Shown here: positions 3,498 through 37,592 of the stretch, piece after piece | Layout of the letters: the number at the start of each line of letters is the position of its first letter | How positions within the stretch are numbered: position 1 is the first letter of the stretch | Origin: Candidatus Babeliales bacterium | Lineage (GTDB): Bacteria > Babelota > Babeliae > Babelales > RVW-14 | Direction: 5' to 3' | DNA length: 64,000 nucleotides | Assembly: GCA_019746485.1 (NCBI GenBank) | Contig: JAIERW010000022.1 | Span: 3,280-67,279 of the forward strand | Made by a program: the position numbers and the translations under genes | The notes under the pieces: model-generated | Databases searched by the model: none | What the model was told of the DNA's origin: nothing | What the model saw: the letters and a program-made list of their open reading frames with translations, nothing else

Positions 3498-3516
3498 AAT
3501 TACCATTTTTCCTGAG

Positions 3517-6237
3517 TTAACTCACATTGTTATAAAATAATTTTCCATCAAGTTGAACGCGCGCGCCGGCCAAGAAAAATACGTCAACGTCTGATGTTGA
3601 GCCCAGCGCTGAGTTGCCAAAAACCAGGCCGTTGGTGAGCGCTTGTGTTGACGTGTCAAAGCGAAAAGTAGTGGAATAAATTTCAAATTCATCATGGCCT
3701 GAATCAGGTACGTTTCCGCCAATTGCCACATATTTGCCATCGTGTGACCAAGCAACGCCAATTGCTGCTGTGCCGTAATTGCTGCTGGTGACCAGTGTTA
3801 ATGCAGAACCGTCAAATTTATAAAATTGAATTTCATCGCCATTGATTGGCTCTCTTCCCACAATAGCTATATAGTTTCCTGAAGGATCCCACGCTATTTC
3901 TCTCACCTCGCCTGTTGCTGATGTTGAATAATCTTTGCTATCAATGAGTGTTAATGAGCCGCCATAAAAACTGTATATTTGAAGCTCAAAGGTACTGGTT
4001 GGAAGTAGTCCACCAACGGCAAGAAAGTTGCCTGCTGGGTTGAACACTACAGCGCCAATAAAACTGCTTGCGCCACCAAAATCTATGCTGGTAGCTAATG
4101 ATAATGTTGATCCGTTAAAAGAATACAGACGTAATTCATTGCCGCCAGACACTGCTCCTGTGGTTCCTATAGCCAGATAGTTGCCGGTGGGGTGCCACGA
4201 TGATCCACTTAGATTTGCTGTTCCTATATCAGCTCCTGTGACAAGTGTTGGTGCTGTTGGGCCATTGAATCGATAAATTTGTACTTCATTACCACTGATT
4301 GGGATATTAGCATTTACGGCAATGTATTTGCCATCTGGGCTCCATATTGCGCGAGGAATAGTACTGGTTGCAATTGTAAGGCTTGAAATTTGCGTTAAAG
4401 TTGTGCCATTAAAGCTGTAGAGATAAAACTCTGTGCTTCCCGTTACTGCCAAAAATCTGCCGTCAGGGCTCCATTTTGCGTTAAAAGATGTAGCACCCGC
4501 TAAAGCAACGTCTGCCGAATCAACAAGGCTTACTGATGTGCCAGTAAAACGGAAAATTTGTAGTTCGTTACCGCTGGGAGGAGAGTTTCCTGAAACGGCG
4601 ATAAAGCGATCGTCAGGAGAAAAATCGACCGATTCAACAAAAGTTCCGTAGTCTTGGGTTATAATTTGTGTAACCACATCAAGTGTGGTTGCTGCTTGTG
4701 TGCTGAGCGTAACTTTGTTGTCCATCCATAAACGGCCCTTGGTCAAGCGCATACCGGTGTGCGTTGTTTGCAACGTGGTGCCGGAGCCTTTGAAATAAAT
4801 GCCCGAGGACTTATCGGTGAGTTGTAGTAATGTTTTGTCGGTTGAGCTTGGGTAGTAGTACAATGTGGTGCCCGGATCAAAGGTCAGTAGCGATTGTGGC
4901 ATGACATAACTTTGCATCCACGATTGGTAAATAAATTTTGAAGTGCCGGTAAAGCGGACATCGTTATAAAAAAACATGCGCCCGGTGCGCCATGCAAAGT
5001 CGTCGGTAAGTGCTATGTTTACGTTGTCAAATGTTACGTGGCCTTTTTGGTCGTAGCAGCGAATAATAGGAATTGCAAGAGCGTTGCGTGTTGTTTGAAT
5101 ATTTACATTTTTGAGTGTTAACGAGACATTTGATTCGAGTAAAATTTGGGCGTGCGGTCCAAAAACTATTGTGCCGCCGTTGCCGTCAATGATTAAGCTG
5201 CTGGTTATTTGAAGTGTAGTAAGTGTTGAGAGCACCAAGCTATCGCTCATAACAAGCGAAAAGTTATTGCCGCCCAAATAGCCGCCGCTGGTGATATAAG
5301 CATTAGAATTCAAATACAAATCGCCTGCGAGCACAAGTTTGCCGGTTGATTTAAGCGCAATGTTGCCGCTAACGGGAAGCGGTGTCATGAGTGTGAGCGT
5401 TTTACCAGCATCAACTTCAAAGCCTGCTTTATAAAGAATAATTTTATTGATGGTGGTGGTTGCTTGAAAGCGCGAGTGGTTGGAAACTATTTGTACGTTG
5501 TTACCAAAGTAGTTTATAGCGTTACTGTTTTGGATATTGGTAGCTATTTGATTGCGGGTAAAAACAATAAGATTACTGTTGCTTCTTACCAGCGTTGTGC
5601 TGGCAAAGTTAAAACCGTTGGCAGTGTTACTGTTGTTGATAATTCTGCGCGACAAAGCAACGGCGGCGTTACTGTTGGCACGTACTCTGAAACCCAAAGA
5701 AATAATGGCATTACTGTTATTTTTTATGCCAAAGCGCAGGGCGTTACTATCAAATCTGACGCATGGAAGGATGGTAGAACTATTTGCTCTAATTCTGGTT
5801 GGCAAGGTAATAATGCCGTTACTGTTGCTCAATTCAAGGCGGGCGATGGCGGCAATTACGTTACTATTGTTGTTTGAAAGCGGGGCTATGCTGGTGATCA
5901 CGTTACTATTATTTTGGGTCAGTCTTCCCCACGCGTTAATCGCGTTACTGTTGTTAACAACCATGTTGGTTGAAGGTTGTCGGCGTCCTGTGCCCAGCTC
6001 AACACCGGCGGTGTACGTTTCTGTCCAGCTGGCAGCACTTTTAACAAAGCTTTTAATAATAGAATCTTGTGTCCAGCCGGTTACTTGCGAAGCATTGGTT
6101 ATTTTGAGGCGTGAAACGGTAACTTGACTCAACTCGTCAATAATCAACGTTGCATCTTGATTGGCAAAGTCGAGCGTGCACTGTGTTGTGCCTGAGTAAA
6201 AAAAGTATGTGAGAACTAAAAAAATACTTCTTTTCAT
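3517..6237 (-). CDS. Large secreted surface-type protein, paralog 2 (same architecture as paralog 1)
   Basis: 906 aa ORF with a signal peptide and about 11 NNSNA-type repeats. The core is near-identical to paralog 1 (KAGFEVDAGKTLTLMTPLPVSGNIALKSTGKLVLAGDLYLNSNAYITSGG). Blade motifs include FSPDDRFIAV, WSPDGRFLAV, WSPDGKYIAV, WHPTGNYLAI, FNPAGNFLAV, WDPSGNYIAI and WSHDGKYVAI. The gap to the next gene is 10 nt. Confidence 0.88.
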   Translation of the reverse strand: MKRSIFLVLTYFFYSGTTQCTLDFANQDATLIIDELSQVTVSRLKITNASQVTGWTQDSIIKSFVKSAASWTETYTAGVELGTGRRQPSTNMVVNNSNAINAWGRLTQNNSNVITSIAPLSNNNSNVIAAIARLELSNSNGIITLPTRIRANSSTILPCVRFDSNALRFGIKNNSNAIISLGFRVRANSNAAVALSRRIINNSNTANGFNFASTTLVRSNSNLIVFTRNQIATNIQNSNAINYFGNNVQIVSNHSRFQATTTINKIILYKAGFEVDAGKTLTLMTPLPVSGNIALKSTGKLVLAGDLYLNSNAYITSGGYLGGNNFSLVMSDSLVLSTLTTLQITSSLIIDGNGGTIVFGPHAQILLESNVSLTLKNVNIQTTRNALAIPIIRCYDQKGHVTFDNVNIALTDDFAWRTGRMFFYNDVRFTGTSKFIYQSWMQSYVMPQSLLTFDPGTTLYYYPSSTDKTLLQLTDKSSGIYFKGSGTTLQTTHTGMRLTKGRLWMDNKVTLSTQAATTLDVVTQIITQDYGTFVESVDFSPDDRFIAVSGNSPPSGNELQIFRFTGTSVSLVDSADVALAGATSFNAKWSPDGRFLAVTGSTEFYLYSFNGTTLTQISSLTIATSTIPRAIWSPDGKYIAVNANIPISGNEVQIYRFNGPTAPTLVTGADIGTANLSGSSWHPTGNYLAIGTTGAVSGGNELRLYSFNGSTLSLATSIDFGGASSFIGAVVFNPAGNFLAVGGLLPTSTFELQIYSFYGGSLTLIDSKDYSTSATGEVREIAWDPSGNYIAIVGREPINGDEIQFYKFDGSALTLVTSSNYGTAAIGVAWSHDGKYVAIGGNVPDSGHDEFEIYSTTFRFDTSTQALTNGLVFGNSALGSTSDVDVFFLAGARVQLDGKLFYNNVS

Positions 6238-6249
6238 AATTACCGTTCG

Positions 6250-8967
6250 TTAACTCACATTGTTATAAAATAACTTGCCATTTAATTCCACACGCGCGCC
6301 AGCCAATAAAAATACGTCAAGATCTGAAGTTGAGCCAAGTGTTGAGTTGCCAAAATTAATGCCGTTGGTGAGTGCTTGTGTTGTTGATTCTGTGGTGTAT
6401 GAAACGGTGTAAATATCAAGTTCTGAAGAGGAAGACCGTATAAAAGCAAGCAAAGAACCATCGCTTGACCAACTGGTAGACATATATTCATTATTACCAA
6501 GAGATATTGTTTGCACCAACGTAAGGCTTGATGAATCAAATTTATAAATCTGAAAGTTTCCAGAATTGACACTACGGCCCACAGCAAGATGAACACCATC
6601 TGGAGACCATGTAGCGGCGTTATACCCAAGAGAAGCGCCGCCAGATACCGTAGTAATGAGCCTTTGGCTTGTGCCATTAAAAGAATACACCGCAACTACC
6701 GGATCGCCAGATGTATTCGTATTTCGTGCTGTTACAGCATAAAATAATCCATTTGGGCTCCATGCTATTTGCGCAGCATCAGGCAAAGCTGCTCCAAATA
6801 CAAGATTGATACTATTTACTACGGTAAGAGAAGTACCATTAAATGAATAAATTTTACTCGTAGTTGTTGATCCACCAGGAGAGTAATAAATTCCTAAATA
6901 TTTGCCGCTTGGGCTCCATGAAAGGGGTTTGTCCGTTCCAATAGCACTTGCTCCTGGTCCAACGCTAGTGATTGTTGAAAGAGAAGAACCATTAAATGAA
7001 TAAATAGTGAGCGCGCCAGTGCTCATGCCTGCAAGGTAGTTGCCACAAGGGCTCCACGCAACGGTAAATTGACTGCCTGAGGTTGTAACAAGGCTGAGCG
7101 TTGTTTCATTAAAGCTTAAGACAGACATGCTTCCACCAAGTGTTCCAAAGGCGAGAAATTTGCCAGATGGATGCCAGTGAACAGAGTAGAGGTTTGATCC
7201 GCCGGCAAAGTAAGAACAAACAAATTGTAGGTTTGTCCTGGTAACTTTAAAAATACGTATGATGCGATTAGTATAATCACCAGTCATTATGTAGCGAGCA
7301 TCGGGGCTAAATTCACACAATTGAAAGCTGGCTCCGCTTGTTATCATGCTGTACGTTAGGGAGGTGCTCAAAAATTTTGTGTTTGCTTTGGTATTGAGCG
7401 TTACTTTATTGTCTAGCCACAAGCGACCTTTGGTAAAGCGCACGCCTGTGGTTGTTGTTTGAAGTGTTACGGCGCTGCCATTGAAGTAAATGCCCGATGA
7501 TTTGTCTTGCAATTGAATTAAATCTTTTTCAGTTGAGCTTGGATAGTAGTAAAGTGTGGTACCAGGATCGAATGTTAACAATGACTGTGGTGTAACATAA
7601 CTTTGCATAACTGATTGGTAAACAAGGCGCGAGGTGCCGGTAAAGCGTACATCATTGCTAAAAAATATGCGGCCGATTCTGAATGGAAAATCGTCGGCAC
7701 AAGAAAGGGTTACATTGTCAAAAGTTACATGTCCTGTTGGGCAAAAACAGCGAATAATGGGAATGTTTGGGCTGTTACGTGTTGTTTGAATGTGCATATT
7801 TTTGAGCGTTAATGACACATTTGTTTCGACTAAAAGTTGCGCGTGTGGCCCAAAAACAAGCGTGCCACCGTTGCCATCAATAATCAAGCTGCTGGTGATG
7901 TCCAGCGTGGTAAGAGTTGAGAGTACCAAGCTGTCGCTCATAACCAACGAAAAGTTATTGCCACCCAAATAGCCTTCGCTGGTCAGATAAGCGTTTGAAC
8001 CCAAATACAAATCGCCTGCCAATACAAGTTTTCCGGTTGATTTGAGAGCAATGTTGCCGTTGACGGGCAGCGGGGTCATGAGCGTGAGTGTTTTGCCAGC
8101 ATCAACTTCAAAGCCGGCTTTATAAAGAATAATTTTGTTGATAGTGGTGGTTGCCTGAAAGCGTGAGTGGTTGGAAACAATTTGTACGTTGTTGCCAAAA
8201 AAATTAACGGCGTTACTGGTTTGTCTATTAAGTGCGGTGAGTGCTGGGGTAATATCTGCGGCAAGTTTGATAATGGCATTACTATTTTGTTTGATTAGTG
8301 CCGCGTTGGCAGTAAGATTAGCGCTAATTTTAATCACAGCGCTACTGTTTTGTTTTGCCAGCCTGCTTATGCTTAAAATAACGTTACTGTTGCCGCGAAC
8401 AAGTGCATAAAGCCTTACAATCGCACTACTATTATTTTTTATGCCAAAAACTAGGGCGTTACTGTTATTTTTTATGCCAAAGTTAAGCGCGTTACTGTTG
8501 GCATTTTCTGAGCGATGCAAAAAGACCAGTAAGTTACTGTCGGCCCGCACCAACGGTGCTAGCTTGTTTAGGGCGTTACTGTCGTTTAAAACCTTGCGGT
8601 TGAGCGCAACGGTGGCGTTACTGTTGTTAACAGCCAGTGGGCGATGCACTTTGACCGCGTTACTGTTGTTATAGATCATATTAGTTGGCTGCCCTTGCCG
8701 CCCTGTGCCAATTTCAACACCGGCGGTATAGCTTTCAGTCCACGAGGTTGGGCTGGTGTTGCCATAAACTTTGATAATTGAATCTTGAGAAAAGCCGGTA
8801 ATTTGTGCAACTTTGCGCAAGCCAACCCGCGCATCTGGTTGTGGGTTGAGTACCAAGTTTGAGTTGCGGCTTACAAATTTGAGTGCGCCAAAAAGGTTGG
8901 GGTGCGGGCATAAAGAAGTTGCAATAAAAGCTGCGCAAAACAAGTAAAACGTTGGGACACGTCTCAT
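6250..8967 (-). CDS. Large secreted surface-type protein, paralog 3 (same architecture)
   Basis: 905 aa ORF with the same module order. The hydrophobic N-terminus is MRRVPTFYLFCAAFIATSLC. The C-terminal tail is TQALTNGINFGNSTLGSTSDLDVFLLAGARVELNGKLFYNNVS. Confidence 0.88.
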   Translation of the reverse strand: MRRVPTFYLFCAAFIATSLCPHPNLFGALKFVSRNSNLVLNPQPDARVGLRKVAQITGFSQDSIIKVYGNTSPTSWTESYTAGVEIGTGRQGQPTNMIYNNSNAVKVHRPLAVNNSNATVALNRKVLNDSNALNKLAPLVRADSNLLVFLHRSENANSNALNFGIKNNSNALVFGIKNNSSAIVRLYALVRGNSNVILSISRLAKQNSSAVIKISANLTANAALIKQNSNAIIKLAADITPALTALNRQTSNAVNFFGNNVQIVSNHSRFQATTTINKIILYKAGFEVDAGKTLTLMTPLPVNGNIALKSTGKLVLAGDLYLGSNAYLTSEGYLGGNNFSLVMSDSLVLSTLTTLDITSSLIIDGNGGTLVFGPHAQLLVETNVSLTLKNMHIQTTRNSPNIPIIRCFCPTGHVTFDNVTLSCADDFPFRIGRIFFSNDVRFTGTSRLVYQSVMQSYVTPQSLLTFDPGTTLYYYPSSTEKDLIQLQDKSSGIYFNGSAVTLQTTTTGVRFTKGRLWLDNKVTLNTKANTKFLSTSLTYSMITSGASFQLCEFSPDARYIMTGDYTNRIIRIFKVTRTNLQFVCSYFAGGSNLYSVHWHPSGKFLAFGTLGGSMSVLSFNETTLSLVTTSGSQFTVAWSPCGNYLAGMSTGALTIYSFNGSSLSTITSVGPGASAIGTDKPLSWSPSGKYLGIYYSPGGSTTTSKIYSFNGTSLTVVNSINLVFGAALPDAAQIAWSPNGLFYAVTARNTNTSGDPVVAVYSFNGTSQRLITTVSGGASLGYNAATWSPDGVHLAVGRSVNSGNFQIYKFDSSSLTLVQTISLGNNEYMSTSWSSDGSLLAFIRSSSSELDIYTVSYTTESTTQALTNGINFGNSTLGSTSDLDVFLLAGARVELNGKLFYNNVS

Positions 8968-9152: not shown

Positions 9153-10490
9153 TTATTTTGTTGCCAGCGTGGCAAGTTCTTGAGCCAGTGTGACCAGTTT
9201 TGCTTTGAGGGCTTCGAGGGTTTGTTGGAGATTCTTTAATGGTTTTTCTTTGACTTCTTTTATGGCTGTTTCCAGATCATTACCCAAAGGCCCTGCAAAG
9301 TGATTGGTCTTCAATCGAGTAACTTCAGCTTCTAGGCCTGCTGGATTAATTTTTAAGAGGTGTTCAATCATGATGTTGGCAACTAGGGGTGAGTATGTTA
9401 GTGCATTTATTAATGGACTTCGAGGAAGTGTCATATCATTATTTTGAATGAGAGGGTCGGCGCCTTTTTCTAAAAGTTCTTTGAAAAAACTAAGATCGGC
9501 GTCTGGGTTGTGGTGTAAAAAACCTACGTATAAGGTTATAAATTCGTGCAGAGCAGTATTCCCATCATCATTTTGAGCATTCAAGTCTAATGCCGTGAGT
9601 TGAGCTTGCGCATGATTCCAAAGTTTTTCAAAGTATTGTTTTACTATCTCTGGAGAAGTAGAGCCGGCAGTGCTTCTTGCCAGCGTTATCAATGGCGTTT
9701 GGTTGTCTGTAGTTGGCTTGTTAACATCTGGATTTTTGGTAAGAACAGCATCGATAATGGGAAGAACTTCAGTGGTTGGGTTGTTGAGAAGCATATGTAA
9801 AAGAGTTTTGCCTTGCTTGTCCTCAATGTTTGGGTCAGCGCCTTGTTCGAGCAGATAATTGACAATATCGAGTTTTTTGTTTGATGCAGCAATGTGTAGT
9901 GCCGTTCTGCCGCCATCATTTTGTCTGTTGATTTCAAATTTTCTTGATGAAACGAGATCAGTTCCCGATGGTTTACTAATTGTTCTATAATTTTCGTCAA
10001 ACTGTTCAACAATTTTTTTTACCAGCTCAAGTTTATCTTTTGTTGTTGCAATAGTTAAAACGGTTTCAGCTCCAAACTTTCCTCTGAGATCTACGCCGGC
10101 ATTAATTAAGGCACTTGTAGCTGCTTTAATTTTTTTCTCTTGATTAGCCCATGGCTCATTATATTTAAATTTCATAATGGTATTGATAAATGGGACAACA
10201 AGAAATTGCTTTGCAGCAATCTCATCGGCAATTGCGGCATTGATTGCATCGTAGAGTTCTAGCGAGGTGGTTTTGGTGATATTGTCTCCTGTTATAAAAT
10301 TATTAATAATGTTAATGAGATCAACTTTTTTGGCTTGAACGTCTGCTTTCTGAGTTGCAAGCATAGCATTAAATCTTTCACGAGCTGTTTGGGGTATTGC
10401 AGCATTCAGTTCTACCGTTGCCGCTCCCCACACCTGCCCATCAGAACCAACCAGCGCCAATAAAAAACAAAAAATAATCTGTTTGGACAT
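9153..10490 (-). CDS. Secreted ankyrin-repeat protein with a C-terminal coiled-coil
   Basis: Start moved to the internal ATG (MSKQIIFCFLLALVGSDGQVWGAAT), which is preceded by AAAGGAG. Ankyrin motifs include GGRTALHIAASNKKLDIVNYLLEQGADPNIEDKQGKTLLH and DGNTALHEF. Confidence 0.85.
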   Translation of the reverse strand: MSKQIIFCFLLALVGSDGQVWGAATVELNAAIPQTARERFNAMLATQKADVQAKKVDLINIINNFITGDNITKTTSLELYDAINAAIADEIAAKQFLVVPFINTIMKFKYNEPWANQEKKIKAATSALINAGVDLRGKFGAETVLTIATTKDKLELVKKIVEQFDENYRTISKPSGTDLVSSRKFEINRQNDGGRTALHIAASNKKLDIVNYLLEQGADPNIEDKQGKTLLHMLLNNPTTEVLPIIDAVLTKNPDVNKPTTDNQTPLITLARSTAGSTSPEIVKQYFEKLWNHAQAQLTALDLNAQNDDGNTALHEFITLYVGFLHHNPDADLSFFKELLEKGADPLIQNNDMTLPRSPLINALTYSPLVANIMIEHLLKINPAGLEAEVTRLKTNHFAGPLGNDLETAIKEVKEKPLKNLQQTLEALKAKLVTLAQELATLATK

Positions 10491-10592
10491 ACGTACTCCT
10501 TTTTTTATTTGTTTCAAACAAATAAAAAAGGGGCCAGCTGGCCCCTTGGTGGTACTGTATGAAATTGCAATGTTGAATCGCAATAAAAAAAA

Positions 10593-11511: not shown

Positions 11512-12468
11512 TTAATTTTTCAGTCCAAGAGGTGGGGTTATGGTTCTGGTGCCTAGTGGACTTGGTGGTGGTGTGACTTCGCTCCCTCTGCTCGGGCTTG
11601 CAAGTCTTTCCAAAAATTCTCTTTTTGGGCTTGCAGCAAGCACAGAAAAATAATGTAAATCTTGAGTTGCTCCGTTTAATGAGCAGAGCCTTGAAAAGAG
11701 CAGCGCCTCAGTGACTCTTTGTTTATAGCCATCGGCAACTTCATGAGGAAGGCGTTGTCGGCGATCTTCTTCGAGTGGGCTATAGCCAAGTTCTAAGAGG
11801 AATTCGACCAGTTCTACATCACCCAAACTTGCTGCTGAGTGCAGAAAAGGTATGTTGTGTTTGCTGGTGCTTCTTTCAATCAAGCGTGCTATTTTTTCGA
11901 TGAAACGTTCATCGGTTCTAAAGACTACTTCTGGGTAAAACAGCTGAGCGATTGCAAGAGCTTTTTCTGGGCTTTTATTGTTAAAGCCGTAAATGAGAGC
12001 AAGTTCAAAAGCATTATAGCCGCTTGAAGTTTTTGTTTCTTTGTCGGCATTTTTTTGTAATAAATAACGAACCAACAGGTCATAGCCGCGCATGCAGGCA
12101 ATGTGCAAGGGCGTAAGGTTTTTGTGCGCGCGGGCATTAAGATTAAGCTTGCATTCTGCAACAAAGGTAGTGATCCACCTAAATTCGCCTTCCCAGCAGG
12201 CGTAGTGCAATGGTGTCCAAAGATGGTTTGGATCTTCTTGATGAATTAAATCGGGAAATAGGTTTAGAATTGCTTTGGTTTTTGCAATATCTCCACGCGC
12301 TGCTGCTTGGCACAGCTTGCCATAAATTCCCATGGGGTTAATTTTTTCCCAGCAGACTGGTATATTTTTTGGACAACTGTTTTCTTGGTTGCTTGATGAT
12401 GAAGCGCCGTGAATGTGGCTAGCAAAAAGAAGCACCGCTAATGCTACTTTTATTGAATGGTTAAACAT
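11512..12468 (-). CDS. Secreted ankyrin-repeat protein with a Pro-rich C-terminus
   Basis: The signal peptide MFNHSIKVALAVLLFASHIHGA is followed by SSSS. Ankyrin motifs are WTPLHYACWEGEF and LTPLHIACMRGYDLLVRYLLQKNADKE. Confidence 0.85.
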   Translation of the reverse strand: MFNHSIKVALAVLLFASHIHGASSSSNQENSCPKNIPVCWEKINPMGIYGKLCQAAARGDIAKTKAILNLFPDLIHQEDPNHLWTPLHYACWEGEFRWITTFVAECKLNLNARAHKNLTPLHIACMRGYDLLVRYLLQKNADKETKTSSGYNAFELALIYGFNNKSPEKALAIAQLFYPEVVFRTDERFIEKIARLIERSTSKHNIPFLHSAASLGDVELVEFLLELGYSPLEEDRRQRLPHEVADGYKQRVTEALLFSRLCSLNGATQDLHYFSVLAASPKREFLERLASPSRGSEVTPPPSPLGTRTITPPLGLKN

Positions 12469-15564: not shown

Positions 15565-15604
15565 AAAAGAGAGGCTACGCTTTTAAACGTAGCCTCTCTT
15601 TTAG
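15565..15604 (-). terminator. Intrinsic terminator downstream of the ankyrin-RING gene
   Basis: Perfect 12-bp stem AGAGAGGCTACG / CGTAGCCTCTCT with an 8-nt loop, flanked by A and T runs on either side. Confidence 0.75.
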
Positions 15605-15623: not shown

Positions 15624-18299
15624 TTAATCGAGTTCGTCAGCATTAATGTGAATTTCTCCATCAATGAAGTGTGCGCCATGTTGCCCGTAGTATTCCTGCA
15701 TGCTTGTACTTGGAATTTGATATACGCTGGAGGTAGGGATCGATTGCAGTTCGGCCATTTCAGCCAATATTTCCTGATTTACGCGAGGGCGTTTTGCGCT
15801 TCTGCTTGTGGTGTTGTCATCAACCAATGAACGTGAAGTTGCAGGGCTTGATGAGCTTGAACTCGATGAGCTTGATGAACTTGAGCTTGAAGTTGCTGAG
15901 CCTGGAAAAGATGGGCTTGCCCCTCGATATTCTTCGCTACTCGGGATGAGCGTAAAGTTTGGATCGAATGGATTTATAAATTCGTCTTCAGGGGTATTGC
16001 TACCAACGCCTGAGCATCCTCGTTTGGCTGGTTGAGGCCTGCAAACGGTTCGCACAACTTTTAGTTCTCTATTTTCTTGAGTAAATTCAGTTTCTGCGCG
16101 ACATAAAGGGCACGTAGATGGCAGGTCGGCGTTGAGTTGTGTATTTGCTGCTTGAGTTAGGCACGTTGGGCAGAAATCGTGACTGCAGCCAAGACTTGCG
16201 CAATCTGAGCCTTCGTCAAAAGGTTCATAACAAATTGCGCAGTAATCTTCATCGGTTTTTTCAATAGTTGTTGCAGCTTGTGGGCCATGTTCTTGTACCT
16301 CGTTTAAAAGGCGCGCAAGAGCTTGGTGGCCGCGTCTGGTTGCTGTTGCTGCTGGCGTTTCGCCAGGAAAATGGCTGCCTGTGGTTGTTGCAGTAACGTT
16401 TGCACCAGCGGTAACAAGTTCTTGTACGCATGCAACATGGCCACTGTAAGCAGCGTCATGAAGTGGAGTGATGCGATCGTTGTCTGTCGCATTAACCTTT
16501 GCACCAGCGGTAATAAGAGCTTGTACGCATGCAAGATGGCCTCTCAAAGCAGCGAGATGAAGTGGAGTGTTGCTATCGTTGTCTGTCGCATTAACGTTTG
16601 CACCAAGTGCAATGAGTGCTTGTACGCATGCAACATGGCCACTGCAAGAAGCGTCATGAAGTGGAGTGTTGCCATCGTTGTTTGCTGCATCAACGTTTGC
16701 ACCAAGTGCAATAAGATCTTGTAAGCGTGGCAGATTGCCATCTCGGGCAGCAGTAATAAGTTGGTTGGCAAGAAATTGTTGGGTTCTGGCGTCAATGATA
16801 GGGCTAGCTTGCCTGAGTGCCTGTACACATTCTGTGCGGCCATTTTCTGCTGCGACATAAAGTGGGGTAAAGCCATTGCAAGCAAGATTAACATTTGCGT
16901 TAAGTTCAATAAGTCTGTTTACGCATGCGATACGGCCATGTTCTGCTGCGACATAAAGTGCTGTCCAGCCATCGTTGTTTGCTGCATCAACGTTTGCGCC
17001 AAGTGCAATAAGTGCTTGCAAGCGTGGCAGATTGCCATCTCGGGCAGCAGTAATAAGTTGGTTGGTGAGCAATTGTTGGGTTCTGGCATCAATGATAGCG
17101 CCTGCTTGCCTGAGTACTTGGACACATTCTGTGTGGCCATGTTCTAGTGCAATATAAAGTGGGGTAAAGTAATTGCAAGCGCGATTAACATCAGCGTTAG
17201 CAGCGATGAGTGCTTGTAAGTTTTCAAGGCGTCCGTGTGCAGCTGCCATGTACAGTGGAGTAGAGCCGTTGTTTCCGATCATGTTAGGGTCTAAGCCCAT
17301 GTCCAGAAGCGCTTGCAGGTGAGCTACATCGTTATCGTTTTCGAAAGCTGTAGCGTAAAGGAGATTTTGTGTTCTTCTGTCAGCCGTAGCGCCGGCGGCG
17401 ATAAGTGTTCGTGCGGCATCAGTACTGCCGTTTGCGGCTGCGGTATACAGCAAAGTATCGCCGTAACGGCTGCTCATGTTGGGACTTAAGCCCATGGCAA
17501 TGAGTACTTGCAGGCCAGCTACATTGTTGTTGCGAGCTGCATCGAAAAAGTGGCCTACTGTTCTTTCATCAACCGTAGCGCCAGCCAGCATAAGTGTTCG
17601 TGCGGCAGCAACGTTGCCCAGCGAGGCTGCGGCATACAGAGCAGAAGATCCGAATGTTTCAATTTGGGTAAGGGGAGCGCCAAGGCTTATAAGTCTTTCA
17701 ATCTCTGCCGTGCTATTATTTCTTGCAGCTAAAATGAGTTGTCTGGAGAGATCTCTTCGTGTTCTATCACTAACTATTCCTCCAAAATAGACGAGTCTTT
17801 GAGCGCATGCTGTGTGGCCATTTTCACGCGCCAGAGAGAGGGGGGTTTTGCCGAGTTGATTTTCAGGATTGATGAGTACGCCCTGCCTTGAGCAGAGATA
17901 GTTTACGAGTACAAGGTTGCCGAGTTCTGCGGCTTTGTGGAGAGTTGTGCTTCCAATGCCCGATCGAGCATTTATGTCGGCGCCGTATTCCAAAAGGACT
18001 TCTGCACAGCCTATTGAAGCGTTGTAAGCAGTCCAAAAAAGTGCAGGTGCATATTCATAGGTATTGCTTCGTGCGGGGTTTGGAACGATGTTGTTAAGAG
18101 CGTCTTCAGGCTGCAAGCCGATAAGTTGTTTTGCTTTCCACAACGTTAGGTTTCCTAGCGCTTGTCTGAGTTGTGCAGGATTGTCTTGGTTAATAGCGTC
18201 TCTAACGGGATTTCCTGTTGGAAATACGGTGGCAGCGGGCAGTGCGTTGGCAGTTAATGCCAAGGCAACAAAAAGTGAATAAGCAAGTTTTTTAAACAT
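15624..18299 (-). CDS. Secreted ankyrin-repeat protein (roughly 20 repeats by eye) fused to a C-terminal C3HC4 RING finger, followed by a poly-Ser tract and a KRPR motif. Putative E3 ubiquitin-ligase mimic
   Basis: Signal peptide MFKKLAYSLFVALALTANALPA. Many TPLH/GANV repeats. The RING is CAICYEPFDEGSDCASLGCSHDFCPTCLTQAANTQLNADLPSTCPLCR (C-x2-C-x13-C-x-H-x2-C-x2-C-x17-C-x2-C), at about 16095-16245. Confidence 0.9.
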   Translation of the reverse strand: MFKKLAYSLFVALALTANALPAATVFPTGNPVRDAINQDNPAQLRQALGNLTLWKAKQLIGLQPEDALNNIVPNPARSNTYEYAPALFWTAYNASIGCAEVLLEYGADINARSGIGSTTLHKAAELGNLVLVNYLCSRQGVLINPENQLGKTPLSLARENGHTACAQRLVYFGGIVSDRTRRDLSRQLILAARNNSTAEIERLISLGAPLTQIETFGSSALYAAASLGNVAAARTLMLAGATVDERTVGHFFDAARNNNVAGLQVLIAMGLSPNMSSRYGDTLLYTAAANGSTDAARTLIAAGATADRRTQNLLYATAFENDNDVAHLQALLDMGLDPNMIGNNGSTPLYMAAAHGRLENLQALIAANADVNRACNYFTPLYIALEHGHTECVQVLRQAGAIIDARTQQLLTNQLITAARDGNLPRLQALIALGANVDAANNDGWTALYVAAEHGRIACVNRLIELNANVNLACNGFTPLYVAAENGRTECVQALRQASPIIDARTQQFLANQLITAARDGNLPRLQDLIALGANVDAANNDGNTPLHDASCSGHVACVQALIALGANVNATDNDSNTPLHLAALRGHLACVQALITAGAKVNATDNDRITPLHDAAYSGHVACVQELVTAGANVTATTTGSHFPGETPAATATRRGHQALARLLNEVQEHGPQAATTIEKTDEDYCAICYEPFDEGSDCASLGCSHDFCPTCLTQAANTQLNADLPSTCPLCRAETEFTQENRELKVVRTVCRPQPAKRGCSGVGSNTPEDEFINPFDPNFTLIPSSEEYRGASPSFPGSATSSSSSSSSSSSSSSSPATSRSLVDDNTTSRSAKRPRVNQEILAEMAELQSIPTSSVYQIPSTSMQEYYGQHGAHFIDGEIHINADELD

Positions 18300-18540
18300 G
18301 ATATAACCTCTTTGGAATATAACCTCTTCGGACAGATTTTTAACTATTTACTCTCTTATTTTATAGAAATATTGCCAGTTTGGCAAATGGGTCAAAGGTG
18401 CCGTTTTTTGAGTTTTGTCCGCTTTATTTAGGCTTATTTTGCCGTTTTATTGGTTTCTGGGTCAATAAATGGCCAGGAGTTAAATTTTTGTCAAATAATC
18501 TCTAATTTTCAAAAAAGGCCCAGTTCTAAAGGCCTTCCGT

Positions 18541-18568
18541 TTGTTTATTGCTAAATTTGTGCTAGAAT
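18541..18568 (+). promoter_or_regulatory. Sigma-70-type promoter candidate for the 18656-22579 gene pair
   Basis: TTGTTT, then a 16-nt spacer, then TGcTAGAAT (extended -10). It lies about 90 nt upstream of the ATG at 18656. Confidence 0.5.
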
Positions 18569-18655
18569 CATACAGTTTTAAAAAACACGATTGTTGTGTA
18601 CGTACGAAAACTAAACAACCAAATCCCGGTTACGGGGACTCATTGGGGGGTCAAA

Positions 18656-22644: not shown

Positions 22645-22662
22645 TTGCCCAAGGAAAATACC

Positions 22663-23586
22663 ATGAAGTTTCTTGATCCCAAAATCGACCTGGCATTTAA
22701 AAAACTGTTTGGCTCTGAAGATCACAAGCGCGTAACTATTTCATTTCTCAACACCATGCTTGAGTATACTGATGACCAGTGCATCGAAACTATTCAATTC
22801 TTGAATAATGAACAACTGCCGGTGAGTGTCGACAAAAAAGAAAATATCTTGGATATTTTTTGCACTGACCGCAGCGGGCGTAAGTTTATCATCGAAATGC
22901 AAAATGCTTGGATGAGGGCCTTTGGTAGTCGTATTGTTTATTATGGCGCAAAAACGTACACTAACCAGCTGGGCAAAGGAATGCCTTACGATGATTTGAG
23001 CCCCGTAACTGTAGTGGCGATTACTCAGCAATTTGAGGTATTTCCCAATAAACTCAATCATAAATCCATTCATTATCTGGTTGACAGCAAGACGTATGAG
23101 CATGATTTGGATGATTTGACGTTTGTTTTTATTGAGTTGCCTAAATTTACTAAAAAAGAACATGAGCTGGTAACTAACGAGGATAAGTGGTTGTTTTTGC
23201 TCAAAGAAATTGGTTTTTATAATCATATTCCAGGGCCGCTTAATCAGGCTGAATTTGGCGAGGCGTGTCAGCTGCTCAATCAGATTACACTGTCTGATTC
23301 TGAGCAAGCAGCGTACGAAAGAAAACTGATCGATACGCGAGCGCGCGAAGTAAACGATTACCTAGCCATGAATGCTGCTGAATACGCGGAAAGAGCTCGT
23401 CTGGAAGGGCTTGAAAAAGGGATTGAAAAAGGACGAATGGAAGCACAACGGGAAGCAGCAAAAAAAATGCTTGCCCGGGGCTTGGATCTTGAGACAATTG
23501 CAGCCGTAACCTTGTTGGCGGTAGATGAAATTAGTGAATTAAAGAAACTGATTTTTTTGCCGGGTCATTCGACTACTCTGGATTAG
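22663..23586 (+). CDS. Rpn/YhgA-like PD-(D/E)XK recombination-promoting nuclease (putative transposase-like)
   Basis: The N-terminus MKFLDPKIDLAFKKLFGSEDHKRVTISFLNTML...DIFCTD..GRKFIIEMQ is the characteristic signature of this family. The ATG is preceded by AAGGAA. Confidence 0.8.
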   Translation: MKFLDPKIDLAFKKLFGSEDHKRVTISFLNTMLEYTDDQCIETIQFLNNEQLPVSVDKKENILDIFCTDRSGRKFIIEMQNAWMRAFGSRIVYYGAKTYTNQLGKGMPYDDLSPVTVVAITQQFEVFPNKLNHKSIHYLVDSKTYEHDLDDLTFVFIELPKFTKKEHELVTNEDKWLFLLKEIGFYNHIPGPLNQAEFGEACQLLNQITLSDSEQAAYERKLIDTRAREVNDYLAMNAAEYAERARLEGLEKGIEKGRMEAQREAAKKMLARGLDLETIAAVTLLAVDEISELKKLIFLPGHSTTLD

Positions 23587-31846: not shown

Positions 31847-32789
31847 TCTATTTTCACCGCAATTAGTGACCGATGCCTGGCATTTAATTGAAAGTGTTAA
31901 CGCTATTACCTTGCTCACTCACCAAAAGCCGGATGCTGATGGCATGTCGGCATGTGCGGCAATGTCTGCGCTGCTTGAAAAAATGGGTAAGTCGGTTGAG
32001 GTGGTGTACCCATCTGAGCCTGAAATACCACTCAAGCGCCAGGGTGCAAACGTGTTGGTAAACAAACATAAGCAAGAGCCTGATTTGTTAATTATGTTTG
32101 ATACGGCAAATTATGAACGGTTGTATTATCCGTCCGCGTTTCACGAAATCCCCAGCATTAATATTGATCATCACATAAGCAACAGTATTAAAGCGACCAT
32201 CAACTTGATTACTGACCAAGTTTCAAGTACCTGCGAGCAGCTTTATTTGTTGTTGTACTGGTGGGGCCAGCAAGTTGATACGTACATTGCCGAATGTTTA
32301 TTGTTTGGTATGCTCTACGACTGCCAAGTTTTTCATACACAATCTACCCGCCCGCGCACATTGCGCGTTGCTGCCGACCTAGTTGACGCAGGCGCCAATT
32401 TGTTTGAGTTGATGGGCGAGTTGTTGTTTAACAAAAAACCAGAAATTATTACCTTGTGGGGCCGGCTGTTAAGCTCGGTTACTTTTGCGCCCAACCGCAA
32501 AGCTGCCTGGTCGGTTATTCGACAAAAAGATTTGCAAAGCCTTGGTTTGACGCTGAGTTCTACTGTTGGCTTTAGCAACTTTTTAGCTCAGCTTGCCGAC
32601 ATTGATATTACGATTTTGTTTTATGAAGAACAGAACGGCAAAACAAAAGTTTCGCTGCGTTCCAAACAGGCCGATGTTAACAAGTTAGCGGCTCATTTTG
32701 GTGGTGGTGGGCACAAAAATGCATCTGGCATTTCAATTGACAAGCCAATTGATGAAGTAGTGAGGGATGTTACGAGTTTGTTGCAATAA
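31824..32789 (+). CDS. nrnA: DHH/DHHA1 phosphoesterase (NrnA-like oligoribonuclease/pAp phosphatase)
   Basis: THQKPDADGMSA, NIDHHISN and GGGGHKNASG. I use the start MNQHLKND at 31824, which overlaps the tsaC end by 23 nt. The upstream part of the track ORF (from 31704) is the tsaC alternate frame. Confidence 0.85.
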   Translation: MNQHLKNDLFSPQLVTDAWHLIESVNAITLLTHQKPDADGMSACAAMSALLEKMGKSVEVVYPSEPEIPLKRQGANVLVNKHKQEPDLLIMFDTANYERLYYPSAFHEIPSINIDHHISNSIKATINLITDQVSSTCEQLYLLLYWWGQQVDTYIAECLLFGMLYDCQVFHTQSTRPRTLRVAADLVDAGANLFELMGELLFNKKPEIITLWGRLLSSVTFAPNRKAAWSVIRQKDLQSLGLTLSSTVGFSNFLAQLADIDITILFYEEQNGKTKVSLRSKQADVNKLAAHFGGGGHKNASGISIDKPIDEVVRDVTSLLQ

Positions 32790-32817
32790 AAAAAGCTTAA
32801 CAACATCGGGAATAAAC

Positions 32818-33705
32818 ATGATTAAAAAAATTTCAACAGTACTTTCATGTACGCTATTGCTTGCAAATTCAGCGTGGGCAGCAACATTTTCTTTGTCTCC
32901 TGAAGAGCGTGAAAAAATCATAGAGCGCGAACTTGATCGGTGTGAGGGACCGCGCCGTTGGCGCCCGTGGTCAAACGAGGAATATTGTAAGAACATGGCG
33001 CAACCATGGACAGGCAAAACCCCCTTGCATATAGCGATAGAAAAAGGTTACTTAGCAGAGATTCGCACCTTTGCTGCGCAAGGTTACGACCTCAATACTG
33101 CTAATCGGTGGGGTGAAACCTTTTTGCACGATGCAGCGGAGTTGCGCAAATCAGAGGTCTTTGATTTGTTGATTGAGCTTGGTGCTAATCGCTATGTCGG
33201 CGACAAAAAAGGTCGGCTTGCCTGGCCAGAGCGCCAAATGGTGTTGGCGGCACAAGTAGGCGACCTTGAGGTAATGCAGCAGTTGTACGCACCTGGTGCG
33301 AGCCTTGAGGCTTACATGTGGAATTTTCACAATAAAGTTGGGTTGTCCGTGCTACACTTGCTCGTGCTGAGTCGCAACTACGAAGCGTTGCGGTGGGCAT
33401 GCACTGAATTGCGCAGAAAATTCAAATCTCTTAATCCTACGTGTGGGGTTGGCTATGAAAAATGGACGCCGCTTTACTATGCCGAGTATCTGCACGATGA
33501 GCAAGCACAGGAAATTTTGCGTGATTTTAAAGCCCATGTTCGGTATGGGCAGCAGGAAGTGCGTGAAAATGAGCTAGAAGATGATCATGCTCAGCTACCA
33601 CCACATGAAAAATTTGCACTTGGTAGTAGCGTTAAGGCTCTTGAGTCGGTTCCTGGAGGGATTTCTTATAATAGTTCGAGTAACGATGGTTGTTGTATTC
33701 AATAG
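32818..33705 (+). CDS. Secreted ankyrin-repeat protein, type A, ending in the CaaX box CCIQ
   Basis: Signal peptide MIKKISTVLSCTLLLANSAWA. TPLHIAIEKGY. Family motif GRLAWPERQMVLAAQVGDLEVM. The C-terminus is ...SSSNDGCCIQ* (33691-33702). Confidence 0.88.
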   Translation: MIKKISTVLSCTLLLANSAWAATFSLSPEEREKIIERELDRCEGPRRWRPWSNEEYCKNMAQPWTGKTPLHIAIEKGYLAEIRTFAAQGYDLNTANRWGETFLHDAAELRKSEVFDLLIELGANRYVGDKKGRLAWPERQMVLAAQVGDLEVMQQLYAPGASLEAYMWNFHNKVGLSVLHLLVLSRNYEALRWACTELRRKFKSLNPTCGVGYEKWTPLYYAEYLHDEQAQEILRDFKAHVRYGQQEVRENELEDDHAQLPPHEKFALGSSVKALESVPGGISYNSSSNDGCCIQ

Positions 33706-33723
33706 AAAAATATAGGAGTAACT

Positions 33724-34653: not shown

Positions 34654-34682
34654 CCAAAACTAACTAACAAGGAAAAATATTT

Positions 34683-35561: not shown

Positions 35562-35589
35562 AAAAAGCTTATCACGTTCAGGATTAACT

Positions 35590-36657: not shown

Positions 36658-36686
36658 ACAACATTAACTAACGAGGAAAAATAGTT

Positions 36687-37574: not shown

Positions 37575-37592
37575 ATTAAGATTGGAATAACT

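What the first reader, a model, noticed from the sequence alone, without database searches (positions are those of the whole stretch)
15624..18299. Secreted ankyrin-repeat / RING-finger fusion: a eukaryote-type E3 ubiquitin-ligase mimic
**Seen.**
- An N-terminal signal peptide and a very long ankyrin solenoid.
- A complete C3HC4 RING (C-x2-C-x13-C-x-H-x2-C-x2-C-x17-C-x2-C, about 16095-16245).
- The poly-Ser/KRPR cassette.

**Established.** Canonical RING fingers are eukaryotic E2-binding modules. Bacteria lack a ubiquitin system, so bacterial RING or U-box proteins such as NleG and LubX act on host ubiquitination.

Fusing an ankyrin substrate-recognition solenoid to a canonical zinc RING in one Sec-signal protein is uncommon.
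Basis: partly seen in the sequence, partly recalled or inferred. Interest (0 to 1): 0.75.

Follow-up and report, generated by a model that had tools for sequence, protein, structure and literature searches.

The report
Exported ankyrin–RING ligase mimic, Babeliales
An amoeba-parasite-type bacterium (order Babeliales) encodes an exported protein that joins about 17 ankyrin repeats to a complete eukaryote-style RING finger, most likely to redirect the host's ubiquitin machinery; this is a well-supported but expected kind of effector for this lineage.

Summary
ORF 15624..18299 (-) encodes 891 aa with these parts:
- a signal-peptide-like N-terminus;
- about 17 ankyrin repeats;
- a complete C3HC4 RING (aa 687-733, window 16101..16241; true spacing x14/x16, not x13/x17);
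- a Ser-rich tail carrying S15 and KRPR.

**RING evidence.** It passes Pfam zf-RING_2 (33.0 bits against a cut-off of 27.3). It matches solved TRIM, Arkadia and RNF4 RINGs by sequence. Its model (pLDDT 84-91) hits only RING E3 structures. It keeps the E2-contact Ile, Pro and Arg. It is the most constrained domain (dN/dS 0.14, against 0.51 for the ankyrin array).

**Origin.** The gene is bacterial. It has a syntenic orthologue in a 'Candidatus Babeliales bacterium' MAG, where housekeeping neighbours are 94-98% identical, and its GC3 is native.

**Family.** It belongs to a small Babeliales-type family with the layout signal peptide, ankyrin, linker, RING, poly-Ser.

**Best reading.** A Sec-exported, host-directed RING E3 whose ankyrin array selects substrates. 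Ligase activity, delivery into the host and nuclear targeting are all inferred.

**Novelty.** Modest. Signal-peptide ankyrin proteins are the norm in Dependentiae. Babela has a signal-peptide RING protein, and a chlamydial RING E3 has been characterised. The ankyrin-RING fusion with the poly-Ser/KRxR cassette is a new variant.

The parts
15624..18299 (-). Complete CDS, 891 aa plus stop: signal peptide, ankyrin array, linker, RING, Ser-rich tail
   Evidence: ORF list. The N-terminus is identical to that of orthologue P0001, which supports the start codon.
18234..18299 (-). Signal-peptide-like N-terminus, aa 1-22 (MFKKLAYSLFVALALTANALPA). The cleavage site is uncertain, somewhere between aa 18 and 24.
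   Evidence: Hydropathy peak at aa 4-18 and no other hydrophobic segment. The same type of N-terminus occurs in all family members. No dedicated predictor was run.
16335..18047 (-). Ankyrin-repeat solenoid, aa ~85-655, about 17 repeats. It includes recent internal duplications: 297-bp units at 16671..17281 and 99-bp units at 16386..16723.
   Evidence: Pfam Ank_2 E = 9.6e-81 with 12 Ank stretches. Repeat spacing of 32-33 aa. TRF arrays. dN/dS 0.51 against the orthologue.
16245..16334 (-). Family-specific linker, aa 656-685 (…GHQALARLLNEVQEHGPQAATTIEKTDEDY)
   Evidence: Conserved in P0001, P0013, P0143 and P0216, and partly in P0151 and P0152. Found only in these proteins among 1.84 billion representatives.
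16101..16241 (-). C3HC4 RING finger, aa 687-733 (C687, C690, C705, H707, C710, C713, C730, C733). E2-contact candidates are I689, P731 and R734.
   Evidence: Regex. PF13639 at 33.0 bits against a cut-off of 27.3. PDB sequence hits to TRIM30/5/25/21, Arkadia and RNF4. AF2 pLDDT 84-91. Foldseek hits are all RING E3s. dN/dS 0.14.
15954..16097 (-). Conserved post-RING segment, aa 735-782 (AETEFTQENRELKVVRTVCRP…DPNFT)
   Evidence: The motif TEFT(Q/R)xN…(V/I)RTV is shared with P0001, P0013 and P0241. The model is of low confidence here.
15846..15890 (-). Poly-serine run S15, aa 804-818
   Evidence: Poly-Ser tails occur in all family members.
15783..15794 (-). KRPR basic motif, aa 836-839, matching the classical monopartite NLS pattern K-(K/R)-x-(K/R)
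   Evidence: All six KRxR motifs in the window's large ORFs follow a poly-Ser run. The motif is not conserved in the orthologue, which has KHSR.
15627..15647 (-). Extreme C-terminus INADELD, conserved as INLDELD in the orthologue
   Evidence: Pairwise alignment. Function unknown.
15565..15602 (-). Intrinsic terminator: 15-pair scanner stem (11-bp perfect G+C-rich core GAGAGGCTACG), followed by TTTTTATT on the minus strand
18307..18386 (-). Promoter-like site (TTGCCA-17-TAAAAT, 18386..18358) and Shine-Dalgarno AAGAGG (18312..18307)
   Evidence: These are consensus matches only.

Best explanation
This is a host-directed RING-type E3 ubiquitin-ligase mimic from an intracellular Babeliales (Dependentiae/TM6) bacterium. 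The proposed steps are listed with their status.

1. The protein is made as a single-gene transcript. (Sequence features are shown; their function is inferred.)
2. It is exported across the inner membrane by Sec through its N-terminal signal peptide. (Inferred from sequence and from the lineage-wide pattern.)
3. It reaches the host cell by a route that is unresolved in this phylum. Candidates are a type II secretion or pilus-type machine (a GspF/PilC-like gene lies in the window), outer-membrane vesicles, or bacterial lysis. (Speculative.)
4. In the reducing host cytosol the C3HC4 RING folds around two zinc ions. It binds a host E2~ubiquitin through I689, P731 and R734. (Inferred from homology to solved RING-E2 complexes.)
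5. The ankyrin solenoid of about 17 repeats holds a host protein, which is then ubiquitinated. The fast-evolving, internally duplicating ankyrin array sets target specificity. (Inferred.)
6. The disordered Ser-rich tail carries short linear motifs. Poly-Ser with acidic residues followed by KRPR resembles a casein-kinase-regulated classical nuclear localisation signal, so part of the protein may act in the host nucleus. (Weakest step, about 0.25-0.3.)
For: **RING identity**
- PF13639 scores above its curated cut-off.
- All eight ligands align to TRIM30/5/25/21, Arkadia, RNF165 and RNF4.
- The model has pLDDT 84-91 over the core.
- Every top PDB and viral structural hit is a RING E3, many solved in complex with an E2.
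- The pattern occurred in 0 of 20,000 shuffles.

**Functional constraint**
- RING dN/dS is 0.14, against 0.51 for the ankyrin array and 0.40 for the whole gene. Background dS in flanking housekeeping genes is 0.43-0.52.
- Within the family, ligand 5 switches between Cys and His, both valid zinc ligands. C-x-I-C and C-P-L-C-(R/K) are kept.

**Bacterial and native**
- The orthologue P0001 sits in the same gene order in GCA_019749895.1. There the kinase, HIT protein, MraY and PheS are 94-98% identical.
- GC3 is 0.37, against 0.39-0.50 in neighbours.

**Export**
- The signal-peptide-like N-terminus is shared by all seven family clusters and by most neighbouring ORFs.
- Published Phobius and signal-peptide counts for Dependentiae ankyrin proteins agree (PMC6561590, PMC4378268).
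- A T2SS-F gene lies at 53376..54584.

**Precedents**
- SneRING of Simkania is an active bacterial RING E3 (PMC12591485).
- Babela has a signal-peptide RING protein whose RING is 36% identical to this one.
Against: - No activity, secretion or host-localisation data exist for this protein or any family member.
- How a Sec substrate would cross the outer membrane and any vacuolar membrane is unknown.
- A cysteine-rich zinc domain must pass through the periplasm without misoxidation.
- The helix position that is often Trp or another large hydrophobic residue in RING-H2 ligases is Ala here (LTQA).
- TRIM-like RINGs often need flanking helices to dimerise. The flanks here were modelled with low confidence.
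- Two family members (P0143, P0216) have degenerate RINGs.
- KRPR is replaced by KHSR in the closest orthologue, which weakens the nuclear-targeting step.
Confidence: 0.62

Rival explanations
1. It is an E2 trap or pseudo-ligase. The RING binds host E2 enzymes and the ankyrin array binds host proteins, but it acts by sequestration or scaffolding and does not catalyse ubiquitin transfer.
For: The central-helix E2-contact position is Ala instead of a large hydrophobic residue (sequence). Some paralogues have degenerate RINGs yet are retained. No dimerisation helices were confidently modelled.
Against: The linchpin-type Arg after the last Cys, together with Ile and Pro, is kept in the window protein and in P0001, P0013 and P0241. 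That Arg matters for activating E2~Ub, not just for binding it. RING dN/dS is 0.14.
Confidence: 0.12
2. It is a surface- or envelope-retained protein. After Sec export it stays in the periplasm or on the bacterial surface, where the ankyrin array and RING act at the interface between bacterium and host (for example by modifying or shielding the surface from host ubiquitin and autophagy) and it is not a soluble effector.
For: Only a Sec signal is recognisable, and no dedicated effector-translocation signal is known in this phylum. Forty-four percent of Chromulinavorax CDS carry signal peptides, many of which must be envelope proteins (PMC6561590).
Against: There is no lipobox, no C-terminal anchor, no beta-barrel and no second hydrophobic segment. 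A zinc RING in an oxidising periplasm would have no partner. The tail carries eukaryote-type linear motifs.
Confidence: 0.12
3. The zinc finger serves another ubiquitin-like modifier (SUMO, NEDD8, ISG15-like) or is a non-ligase treble-clef module (PHD- or FYVE-like) that binds host chromatin or lipids.
For: Weak sub-threshold hits to a PHD-like family (PF13771, E = 0.13). An NLS-like motif is present in the tail.
Against: All significant profile, sequence and structure matches are to ubiquitin RING E3s. The C3HC4 order, the C-P-x-C-R ending and the spacing are those of a RING, not a PHD (C4HC3) or an SP-RING.
Confidence: 0.06
4. It is eukaryotic DNA mis-binned into a bacterial assembly, or a very recent eukaryote-to-bacterium transfer.
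For: The domain types are eukaryote-like. Total GC of the gene (0.48) is above the window mean of about 0.43.
Against: The gene is flanked on both sides by bacterial genes on one contig. The same gene order appears in an independent assembly. It has a bacterial Shine-Dalgarno sequence and an intrinsic terminator. GC3 is native, so the GC excess comes from Ala/Gly-rich ankyrin codons. The best non-family RING matches are only 30-45% identical.
Confidence: 0.02

Closest known systems
Babela massiliensis signal-peptide RING finger protein (COG5574; Pagnier et al. 2015, PMC4378268)
   Same: It comes from the same phylum. It has an N-terminal signal peptide and a C-terminal C3HC4 RING ending C-P-I-C-R. 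The RINGs are 36% identical over 50 aa. It was predicted to be an E3 acting on the amoebal host.
   Different: The Babela protein is 245 aa long and has no ankyrin repeats, no GPQAATxIEKT linker and no poly-Ser/KRxR tail. It is not an orthologue.
SneRING (SNE_A12920) of Simkania negevensis, an experimentally active bacterial RING E3 (PMC12591485)
   Same: It is a bacterial zinc RING that works with host UbcH5-type E2s, from an obligate intracellular bacterium that infects amoebae. It shows that such proteins can be real ligases.
   Different: SneRING has atypical ligands (His at ligand 3, NxxC in place of CxH), an N-terminal RING and an unrelated C-terminal alpha/beta domain. The paper does not mention ankyrin repeats at all.
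Legionella AnkB, Orientia Ank proteins and poxvirus Ank-PRANC proteins (ankyrin plus F-box effectors)
   Same: The logic is the same: an ankyrin array for target capture fused to a module that plugs into host ubiquitination (PMC7830128, PMC4148323; reference 29 in PMC6561590).
   Different: Those proteins recruit a host SCF complex through an F-box and are not ligases themselves. They are delivered by type IV or type I secretion, or are made in the host. Here the catalytic-adaptor RING is in the same chain and the only visible export signal is for Sec.
Eukaryotic and giant-virus ankyrin-RING E3s (plant XB3/XBAT, Mind bomb; Feldmannia virus 'ubiquitin ligase/ankyrin repeat protein')
   Same: The domain order is the same, with ankyrin repeats N-terminal to a C-terminal RING. 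A structural hit to the viral protein appears.
   Different: The XB3/XBAT-specific RING profile scores 19.2 bits against a cut-off of 50, so this protein is not a member. No close eukaryotic or viral homologue of the linker plus RING exists. The eukaryotic proteins lack a signal peptide.
NleG (EHEC) and LubX/GobX/RavN (Legionella) U-box-type effectors
   Same: They are bacterial mimics of the RING/U-box fold that bind host E2s.
   Different: They are zinc-free U-box or U-box-like folds and are type III or type IV secretion substrates. This protein has all eight zinc ligands and no U-box profile hit.

Membership tests
RING-HC (C3HC4) zinc finger, Pfam RING clan (PF13639 / PF00097) | Eight zinc ligands in the order C-C-C-H-C-C-C-C with permitted spacing | tested here: met
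   C-x2-C-x14-C-x-H-x2-C-x2-C-x16-C-x2-C at aa 687-733. The pattern occurs once in six frames and in 0 of 20,000 shuffles.
RING-HC (C3HC4) zinc finger, Pfam RING clan (PF13639 / PF00097) | Profile score at or above the curated gathering cut-off | tested here: met
   PF13639 zf-RING_2 scores 33.0 bits against 27.3. PF00097 zf-C3HC4 scores 20.5 against 21.0, just below. Other RING-clan models are sub-threshold.
RING-HC (C3HC4) zinc finger, Pfam RING clan (PF13639 / PF00097) | Cross-brace RING fold | tested here: met
   AF2 model of aa 668-760 has pLDDT 84-91 over the core. Foldseek hits include TRIM21 6fga at 2.4 A over 69 columns and RNF165 5ulk at 1.8 A over 54; the other listed PDB hits are RING or RING-like domains, or RING-containing complexes. 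Caveats: the model was built from a RING alignment, contains no zinc, and its coordinates could not be inspected for ligand geometry.
Active RING E3 ubiquitin ligases | E2-contact residues: a hydrophobic residue in C-x-Φ-C, Pro in C-P-x-C, and a basic linchpin after the last Cys | tested here: met
   I689, P731 and R734 are present and align with the TRIM and Arkadia equivalents. The helix position that is often Trp is Ala. The roles of these positions are taken from established RING-E2 structures (own knowledge and PMC12591485).
Active RING E3 ubiquitin ligases | E2-dependent ubiquitin transfer | not testable with these tools
   Needs an in vitro assay.
Sec-exported proteins | Cleavable N-terminal signal peptide with n-, h- and c-regions | tested here: inconclusive
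   There is a basic MFKK, a 13-residue hydrophobic core and ANA/PAA small residues, with no lipobox. This is conserved in the family. No SignalP or Phobius run was possible, and the cleavage site is ambiguous.
Translocated host-cell effectors | Demonstrated delivery into the host cell | not testable with these tools
   Only lineage-level inference is available (PMC4378268, PMC6561590).
Ankyrin-repeat proteins (PF12796 / PF00023) | Tandem 33-residue ankyrin repeats above the profile cut-off | tested here: met
   Ank_2 scores 266.9 bits and Ank 226.8 bits with 12 stretches. Repeat spacing is 32-33 aa.
Plant XB3/XBAT ankyrin-RING E3 family (PF24921) | Family-specific RING profile above its cut-off | tested here: not met
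   19.2 bits against a cut-off of 50.
U-box effectors (NleG, LubX type) | Zinc-free U-box fold or profile | tested here: not met
   No PF04564 hit, and all eight zinc ligands are present.
Legionella Dot/Icm ankyrin effectors (NCBIfam T4SS_Ank*) | Equivalog score above the cut-off | tested here: not met
   The best is AnkY at 139 bits against a cut-off of 600. The matches come from ankyrin repeats only.
Classical monopartite nuclear localisation signal | K-(K/R)-x-(K/R) in an exposed or disordered region, with importin-dependent import | tested here: inconclusive
   KRPR lies in a Ser-rich tail with net charge -7, and its association with poly-Ser is non-random. The orthologue has KHSR instead. 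Import is not testable here.
Anti-phage defence proteins (PADLOC) | A specific defence-family match outside the ankyrin repeats | tested here: not met
   Hits to PDC-M72A, Ankyrin and MzaA cover only ankyrin repeats.

The most novel reading that the evidence does not exclude
The poly-Ser / acidic / KRxR cassette may be a portable host-addressing module: a phospho-regulated nuclear-import signal mimic. Babeliales would have grafted it onto unrelated Sec-exported proteins, namely this ankyrin-RING ligase and three 1,167-1,359-aa paralogues with no known domains. On this reading the protein is a secreted nuclear E3 ligase ('nucleomodulin'). It would be the first described for Dependentiae, and delivered without a type III or type IV secretion system.
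Probability: 0.2. Interest if true: 0.65.

Novelty: new variant of a known kind. Interest (0 to 1): 0.42.

Why it matters
Dependentiae are widespread, barely cultured parasites of protists. How they control their hosts is essentially unknown.

This family offers a concrete, testable effector:
- a catalytic module with well-understood mutants (Cys ligands, I689, R734);
- a rapidly diversifying ankyrin array that should point to the host target;
- a small set of natural variants, including C3HC4, RING-H2 and degenerate forms.

If active, it would extend true zinc-RING ligase mimicry from Chlamydiae (SneRING) to a second, deeply separate intracellular phylum that lacks the classical injection systems. 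That would sharpen the open question of how Sec-exported effectors reach the host cytosol or nucleus. It would not overturn any current concept.

Tried and rejected
1. **Word-indexed homologue searches.** Searches with the RING segment alone and with the eight-sequence family alignment failed to retrieve even the 73%-identical orthologue. These results say nothing about distribution. The exhaustive representative search was used instead.
2. **First structure model.** The model of aa 601-800 with a three-sequence alignment gave pLDDT of about 30 for the RING and was discarded. The 61-sequence RING alignment gave a usable model.
3. **Locus scans.** Scans with family patterns found nothing in GTDB species representatives or JGI metagenome contigs. 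One alignment was too divergent to search with. The exact protein and P0013 are not on record for contig look-up.
4. **Legionella ankyrin effectors and PADLOC defence families.** All hits are driven by ankyrin repeats and lie far below the cut-offs. Rejected.
5. **Recent HGT or contamination.** Rejected on synteny, bacterial expression signals and GC3.
6. **C-terminal …DELD as a KDEL-type ER-retrieval signal.** Rejected, because an extra residue follows DEL. The conservation itself remains unexplained.
7. **KR dibasic sites as Kex2/furin-type cleavage sites.** Considered. Only one of the six motifs (RPKR|G) fits R-x-K/R-R, and the NLS reading fits all six. Cleavage is not excluded.
8. **RING phylogeny.** Not attempted formally. 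Fifty alignable residues at 30-45% identity cannot resolve a donor.
Full report
**1. What is in the sequence**

The coordinates given are exactly one ORF on the minus strand, 15624..18299, with an ATG start and 891 codons.
- A GAGG Shine-Dalgarno sequence lies 7 nt before the ATG.
- A promoter-like TTGCCA-17-TAAAAT lies about 60 nt upstream.
- A 15-pair hairpin (11-bp G+C-rich core) followed by TTTTTATT begins 21 nt after the stop. The gene therefore looks like its own transcription unit.

The protein has these parts:
- **N-terminus.** MFKK-LAYSLFVALALTA-NALPAA has the basic, hydrophobic and small-residue layout of a Sec signal peptide. It is the only hydrophobic segment in the protein and has no lipobox.
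- **Ankyrin array.** About 17 repeats over aa ~85-655. Pfam Ank_2 gives E = 9.6e-81 with 12 clear Ank matches, and the repeat period is 32-33 aa. Recent internal duplications are visible as 99-bp and 297-bp DNA repeats.
- **Linker.** A 30-residue segment.
- **RING.** Aa 687-733, window 16101..16241.
- **Post-RING segment.** About 50 conserved residues.
- **Tail.** A 109-residue tail that is 27% serine, carrying S15 (aa 804-818) and KRPR (aa 836-839).

Everything else was correct. The RING pattern occurs once in all six frames of the window, and it appeared in none of 20,000 shuffles of the protein.

**2. Is it a real RING?**

- zf-RING_2 (PF13639) scores 33.0 bits against a curated cut-off of 27.3. 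zf-C3HC4 misses its cut-off by 0.5 bit.
- A sequence search of the PDB aligns all eight ligands to the RINGs of TRIM30, TRIM5, TRIM25, TRIM21, Arkadia, RNF165 and RNF4, with E from 1e-6 to 1e-3.
- A first AlphaFold model with only three sequences failed for this region.
- A second model, using 61 RING segments taken from the exhaustive search, gave pLDDT 84-91 over the RING core.
- Foldseek against the PDB returned RING or RING-like domains throughout, many solved with their E2. Examples are TRIM21-UBE2E1 (6fga) at 2.4 A over 69 columns and RNF165-UbcH5b~Ub at 1.8 A over 54.
- Foldseek against viral models returned mainly RING proteins of giant viruses and herpesvirus ICP0.

The positions that contact the E2 in canonical RINGs are present: Ile in C-A-I-C, Pro in C-P-L-C, and the basic residue straight after the last Cys. 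One helix position that is often a large hydrophobic residue is Ala here. I could not read model coordinates, so zinc-site geometry was not measured directly.

**3. Whose gene is it?**

The best full-length homologue, P0001, is 761 aa and annotated only as 'ankyrin repeat domain-containing protein', from a Candidatus Babeliales bacterium (GCA_019749895.1). It lies in the same gene order as the window gene:
- sensor kinase, HIT protein, two ankyrin genes, an Hsp20-like gene and WD40 genes on one side;
- two unknown secreted proteins, MraY and PheS on the other.

Housekeeping neighbours are 94-98% identical in protein, with dS of 0.43-0.52 and dN/dS of about 0.03. The ankyrin-RING orthologues are only about 59% identical.

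GC3 of the gene (0.37) is like that of its neighbours. The higher total GC comes from Ala/Gly-rich ankyrin codons.

The gene is therefore native, bacterial and fast-evolving. It is neither contamination nor a recent import.

The window as a whole fits a Dependentiae genome:
- at least nine ankyrin genes, including six in tandem;
- WD40 proteins;
- a Fic protein;
- a T2SS-F/PilC-like gene;
- signal-peptide-like N-termini on most ORFs near the gene.

**4. The family**

An exhaustive HMMER search of 1.84 billion representative proteins used aa 655-790 as the query.
- It found 231 proteins with E up to 0.001.
- Only P0001 and P0013 matched across linker, RING and post-RING segment.
- Five weaker clusters share the architecture: P0241, P0151, P0143, P0216 and P0152.

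All seven clusters have the same layout: signal-peptide-like N-terminus, ankyrin repeats, a GPxAATxIEKT-type linker, and the RING. A Ser-rich or poly-Ser stretch after the RING is seen in P0001, P0013 and P0151 and is weaker or unobservable in the others. The clusters that carry names come from Babeliales or unnamed bacterial MAGs.

P0241 is the gene two positions upstream of P0001 in the relative, so that genome carries tandem paralogues where the window has one gene.

Within the family:
- ligand 5 is Cys in some members and His in others, both valid zinc ligands;
- two members have lost distal ligands.

Between the two orthologues, dN/dS varies by region:

| Region | dN/dS |
|---|---|
| RING (50 codons) | 0.14 |
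| Signal-peptide region | 0.22 |
| Linker | 0.47 |
| Ankyrin array | 0.51 |

The RING sample is small, but the trend is clear. The catalytic-type module is conserved while the putative recognition module diversifies.

The remaining ~220 hits match the RING only, at 30-45% identity. They are fungal, plant and animal proteins plus unnamed metagenomic ones. No eukaryotic donor can be named.

One of these hits, P0128, lies on a clearly bacterial contig next to two further RING genes. Canonical RINGs are therefore not unique to this family among uncultured bacteria.

**5. The tail cassette**

In the 36 ORFs of at least 200 aa in the window (17,935 aa), KRxR occurs six times. All six lie 16-45 aa downstream of a run of six or more serines. 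They fall in four proteins with signal-peptide-like N-termini: this protein and three tandem 1,167-1,359-aa paralogues with no Pfam domain.

The three paralogues share ancestry, so there are effectively two independent occurrences. The association is still striking.

All six motifs fit the classical monopartite NLS pattern K-(K/R)-x-(K/R). The upstream Ser and acidic stretch recalls kinase-regulated NLSs. Both of these comparisons rest on my own knowledge.

Against a conserved function, the closest orthologue has KHSR, and the tail elements are rearranged between the two. The orthologues do share the extreme C-terminus IN(A/L)DELD. I cannot explain this; it is not a KDEL-type signal, because a residue follows DEL.

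**6. Mechanism and rivals**

The best-supported reading is a Sec-exported, host-directed RING E3. The RING recruits a host E2~ubiquitin and the ankyrin solenoid presents the substrate.
- *Shown here:* domain identities, the fold model, conservation pattern, bacterial origin and family architecture.
- *Inferred:* zinc binding, E2 binding, catalysis, export, the route into the host and the identity of targets.
- *Weakest inference:* nuclear targeting through KRPR.

Rivals considered:
- an E2-sequestering pseudo-ligase;
- an envelope- or surface-retained protein;
- a role with another ubiquitin-like modifier, or a PHD-like binding role;
- contamination or recent HGT, which is effectively refuted.

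**7. Comparison with what is known**

- *Signal-peptide ankyrin proteins in Dependentiae.* They are the rule: 79 of 126 in Babela massiliensis and 78% of 98 in Chromulinavorax destructans. Both papers propose Sec export, and the second also proposes outer-membrane vesicles (PMC4378268, PMC6561590).
- *Babela RING protein.* Babela was already reported to encode 'a RING finger domain protein'. Its supplement shows a 245-aa protein with a signal peptide and a C-terminal C3HC4 RING but no ankyrin repeats. Its RING is 36% identical to this one.
- *SneRING.* A true bacterial zinc-RING ligase from Simkania was characterised in 2025. It has atypical ligands and a different architecture (PMC12591485).
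- *Ankyrin plus ubiquitin-module effectors.* Those known from Legionella, Orientia and poxviruses use an F-box, not a RING.
- *Eukaryotic and viral ankyrin-RING E3s.* The architecture exists there, but this protein fails the XB3/XBAT-specific profile (19.2 bits against 50).
- *Literature.* Searches found no description of an ankyrin-RING family in Dependentiae.

**8. Verdict**

The claim of rarity needs tempering. This is a new architectural variant (signal peptide, ankyrin, RING, poly-Ser/KRxR) of a known kind of effector, in a lineage where such proteins are expected. Interest is moderate. The protein is a clean, mutable entry point into Dependentiae-host biology, and its shared tail cassette is worth a localisation experiment.

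Noticed in passing
window 40224..43901, 43914..47993, 48006..51509 (all -): Three tandem paralogous genes (1,225, 1,359 and 1,167 aa) have signal-peptide-like N-termini and no Pfam domain. Each carries the same poly-Ser then KRxR cassette at aa ~215-290. Together with the ankyrin-RING tail they hold all six KRxR motifs found in the window's large ORFs.
   Followed up: partly
window 32767..38417 (+): Six consecutive ankyrin-repeat genes of 274-371 aa form a tandem array. Further ankyrin genes lie at 9153..10583 and 11512..12468.
   Followed up: partly
window 738..8967 (-): Three tandem genes of about 905-922 aa have signal-peptide-like N-termini; 6250..8967 has WD40/beta-propeller matches. The same arrangement occurs in the relative L001. 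Protein identity for 6250..8967 is only 63%, although housekeeping genes are 94-98% identical.
   Followed up: partly
window 53376..54584 (-) and 56455..57549 (-): A T2SS protein F / PilC-like gene is a possible outer-membrane export route for Sec substrates. A Fic/DOC-family gene is a possible AMPylating effector or toxin.
   Followed up: no
window 22645..23586 (+) compared with L001 2284..2574: A PD-(D/E)XK transposase-family gene sits between the 542-aa gene and mraY. The close relative has a small GIY-YIG gene at that position. This is a local mobile-element difference inside otherwise conserved synteny.
   Followed up: no
L001 7041..9841 compared with window 18300..18595: The relative carries two extra genes upstream of the orthologue: a 540-aa ankyrin plus RING-H2 paralogue (P0241) and a 381-aa ankyrin protein. 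The window has only a 296-bp intergenic region there, so gene content at this locus turns over between very close genomes.
   Followed up: partly
L003 3825..6779 (JGI metagenome 3300017971): A bacterial contig (PBP transpeptidase, ribosomal protein S20, FtsH, tyrosine recombinase) carries three tandem canonical RING genes of 473, 216 and 294 aa. The first has a signal peptide, three RING-type cysteine/histidine patterns (the middle one degenerate) and a C-terminal hydrophobic segment.
   Followed up: partly
window 15627..15647 (-), aa 885-891: The extreme C-terminus INADELD is conserved as INLDELD in the orthologue, although the rest of the tail is rearranged. It is not a KDEL-type signal, and its meaning is unknown.
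   Followed up: no
window 18301..18332: A 16-bp tandem duplication just upstream of the ATG duplicates the Shine-Dalgarno-containing sequence (…AAGAGGTTATAT… twice).
   Followed up: no
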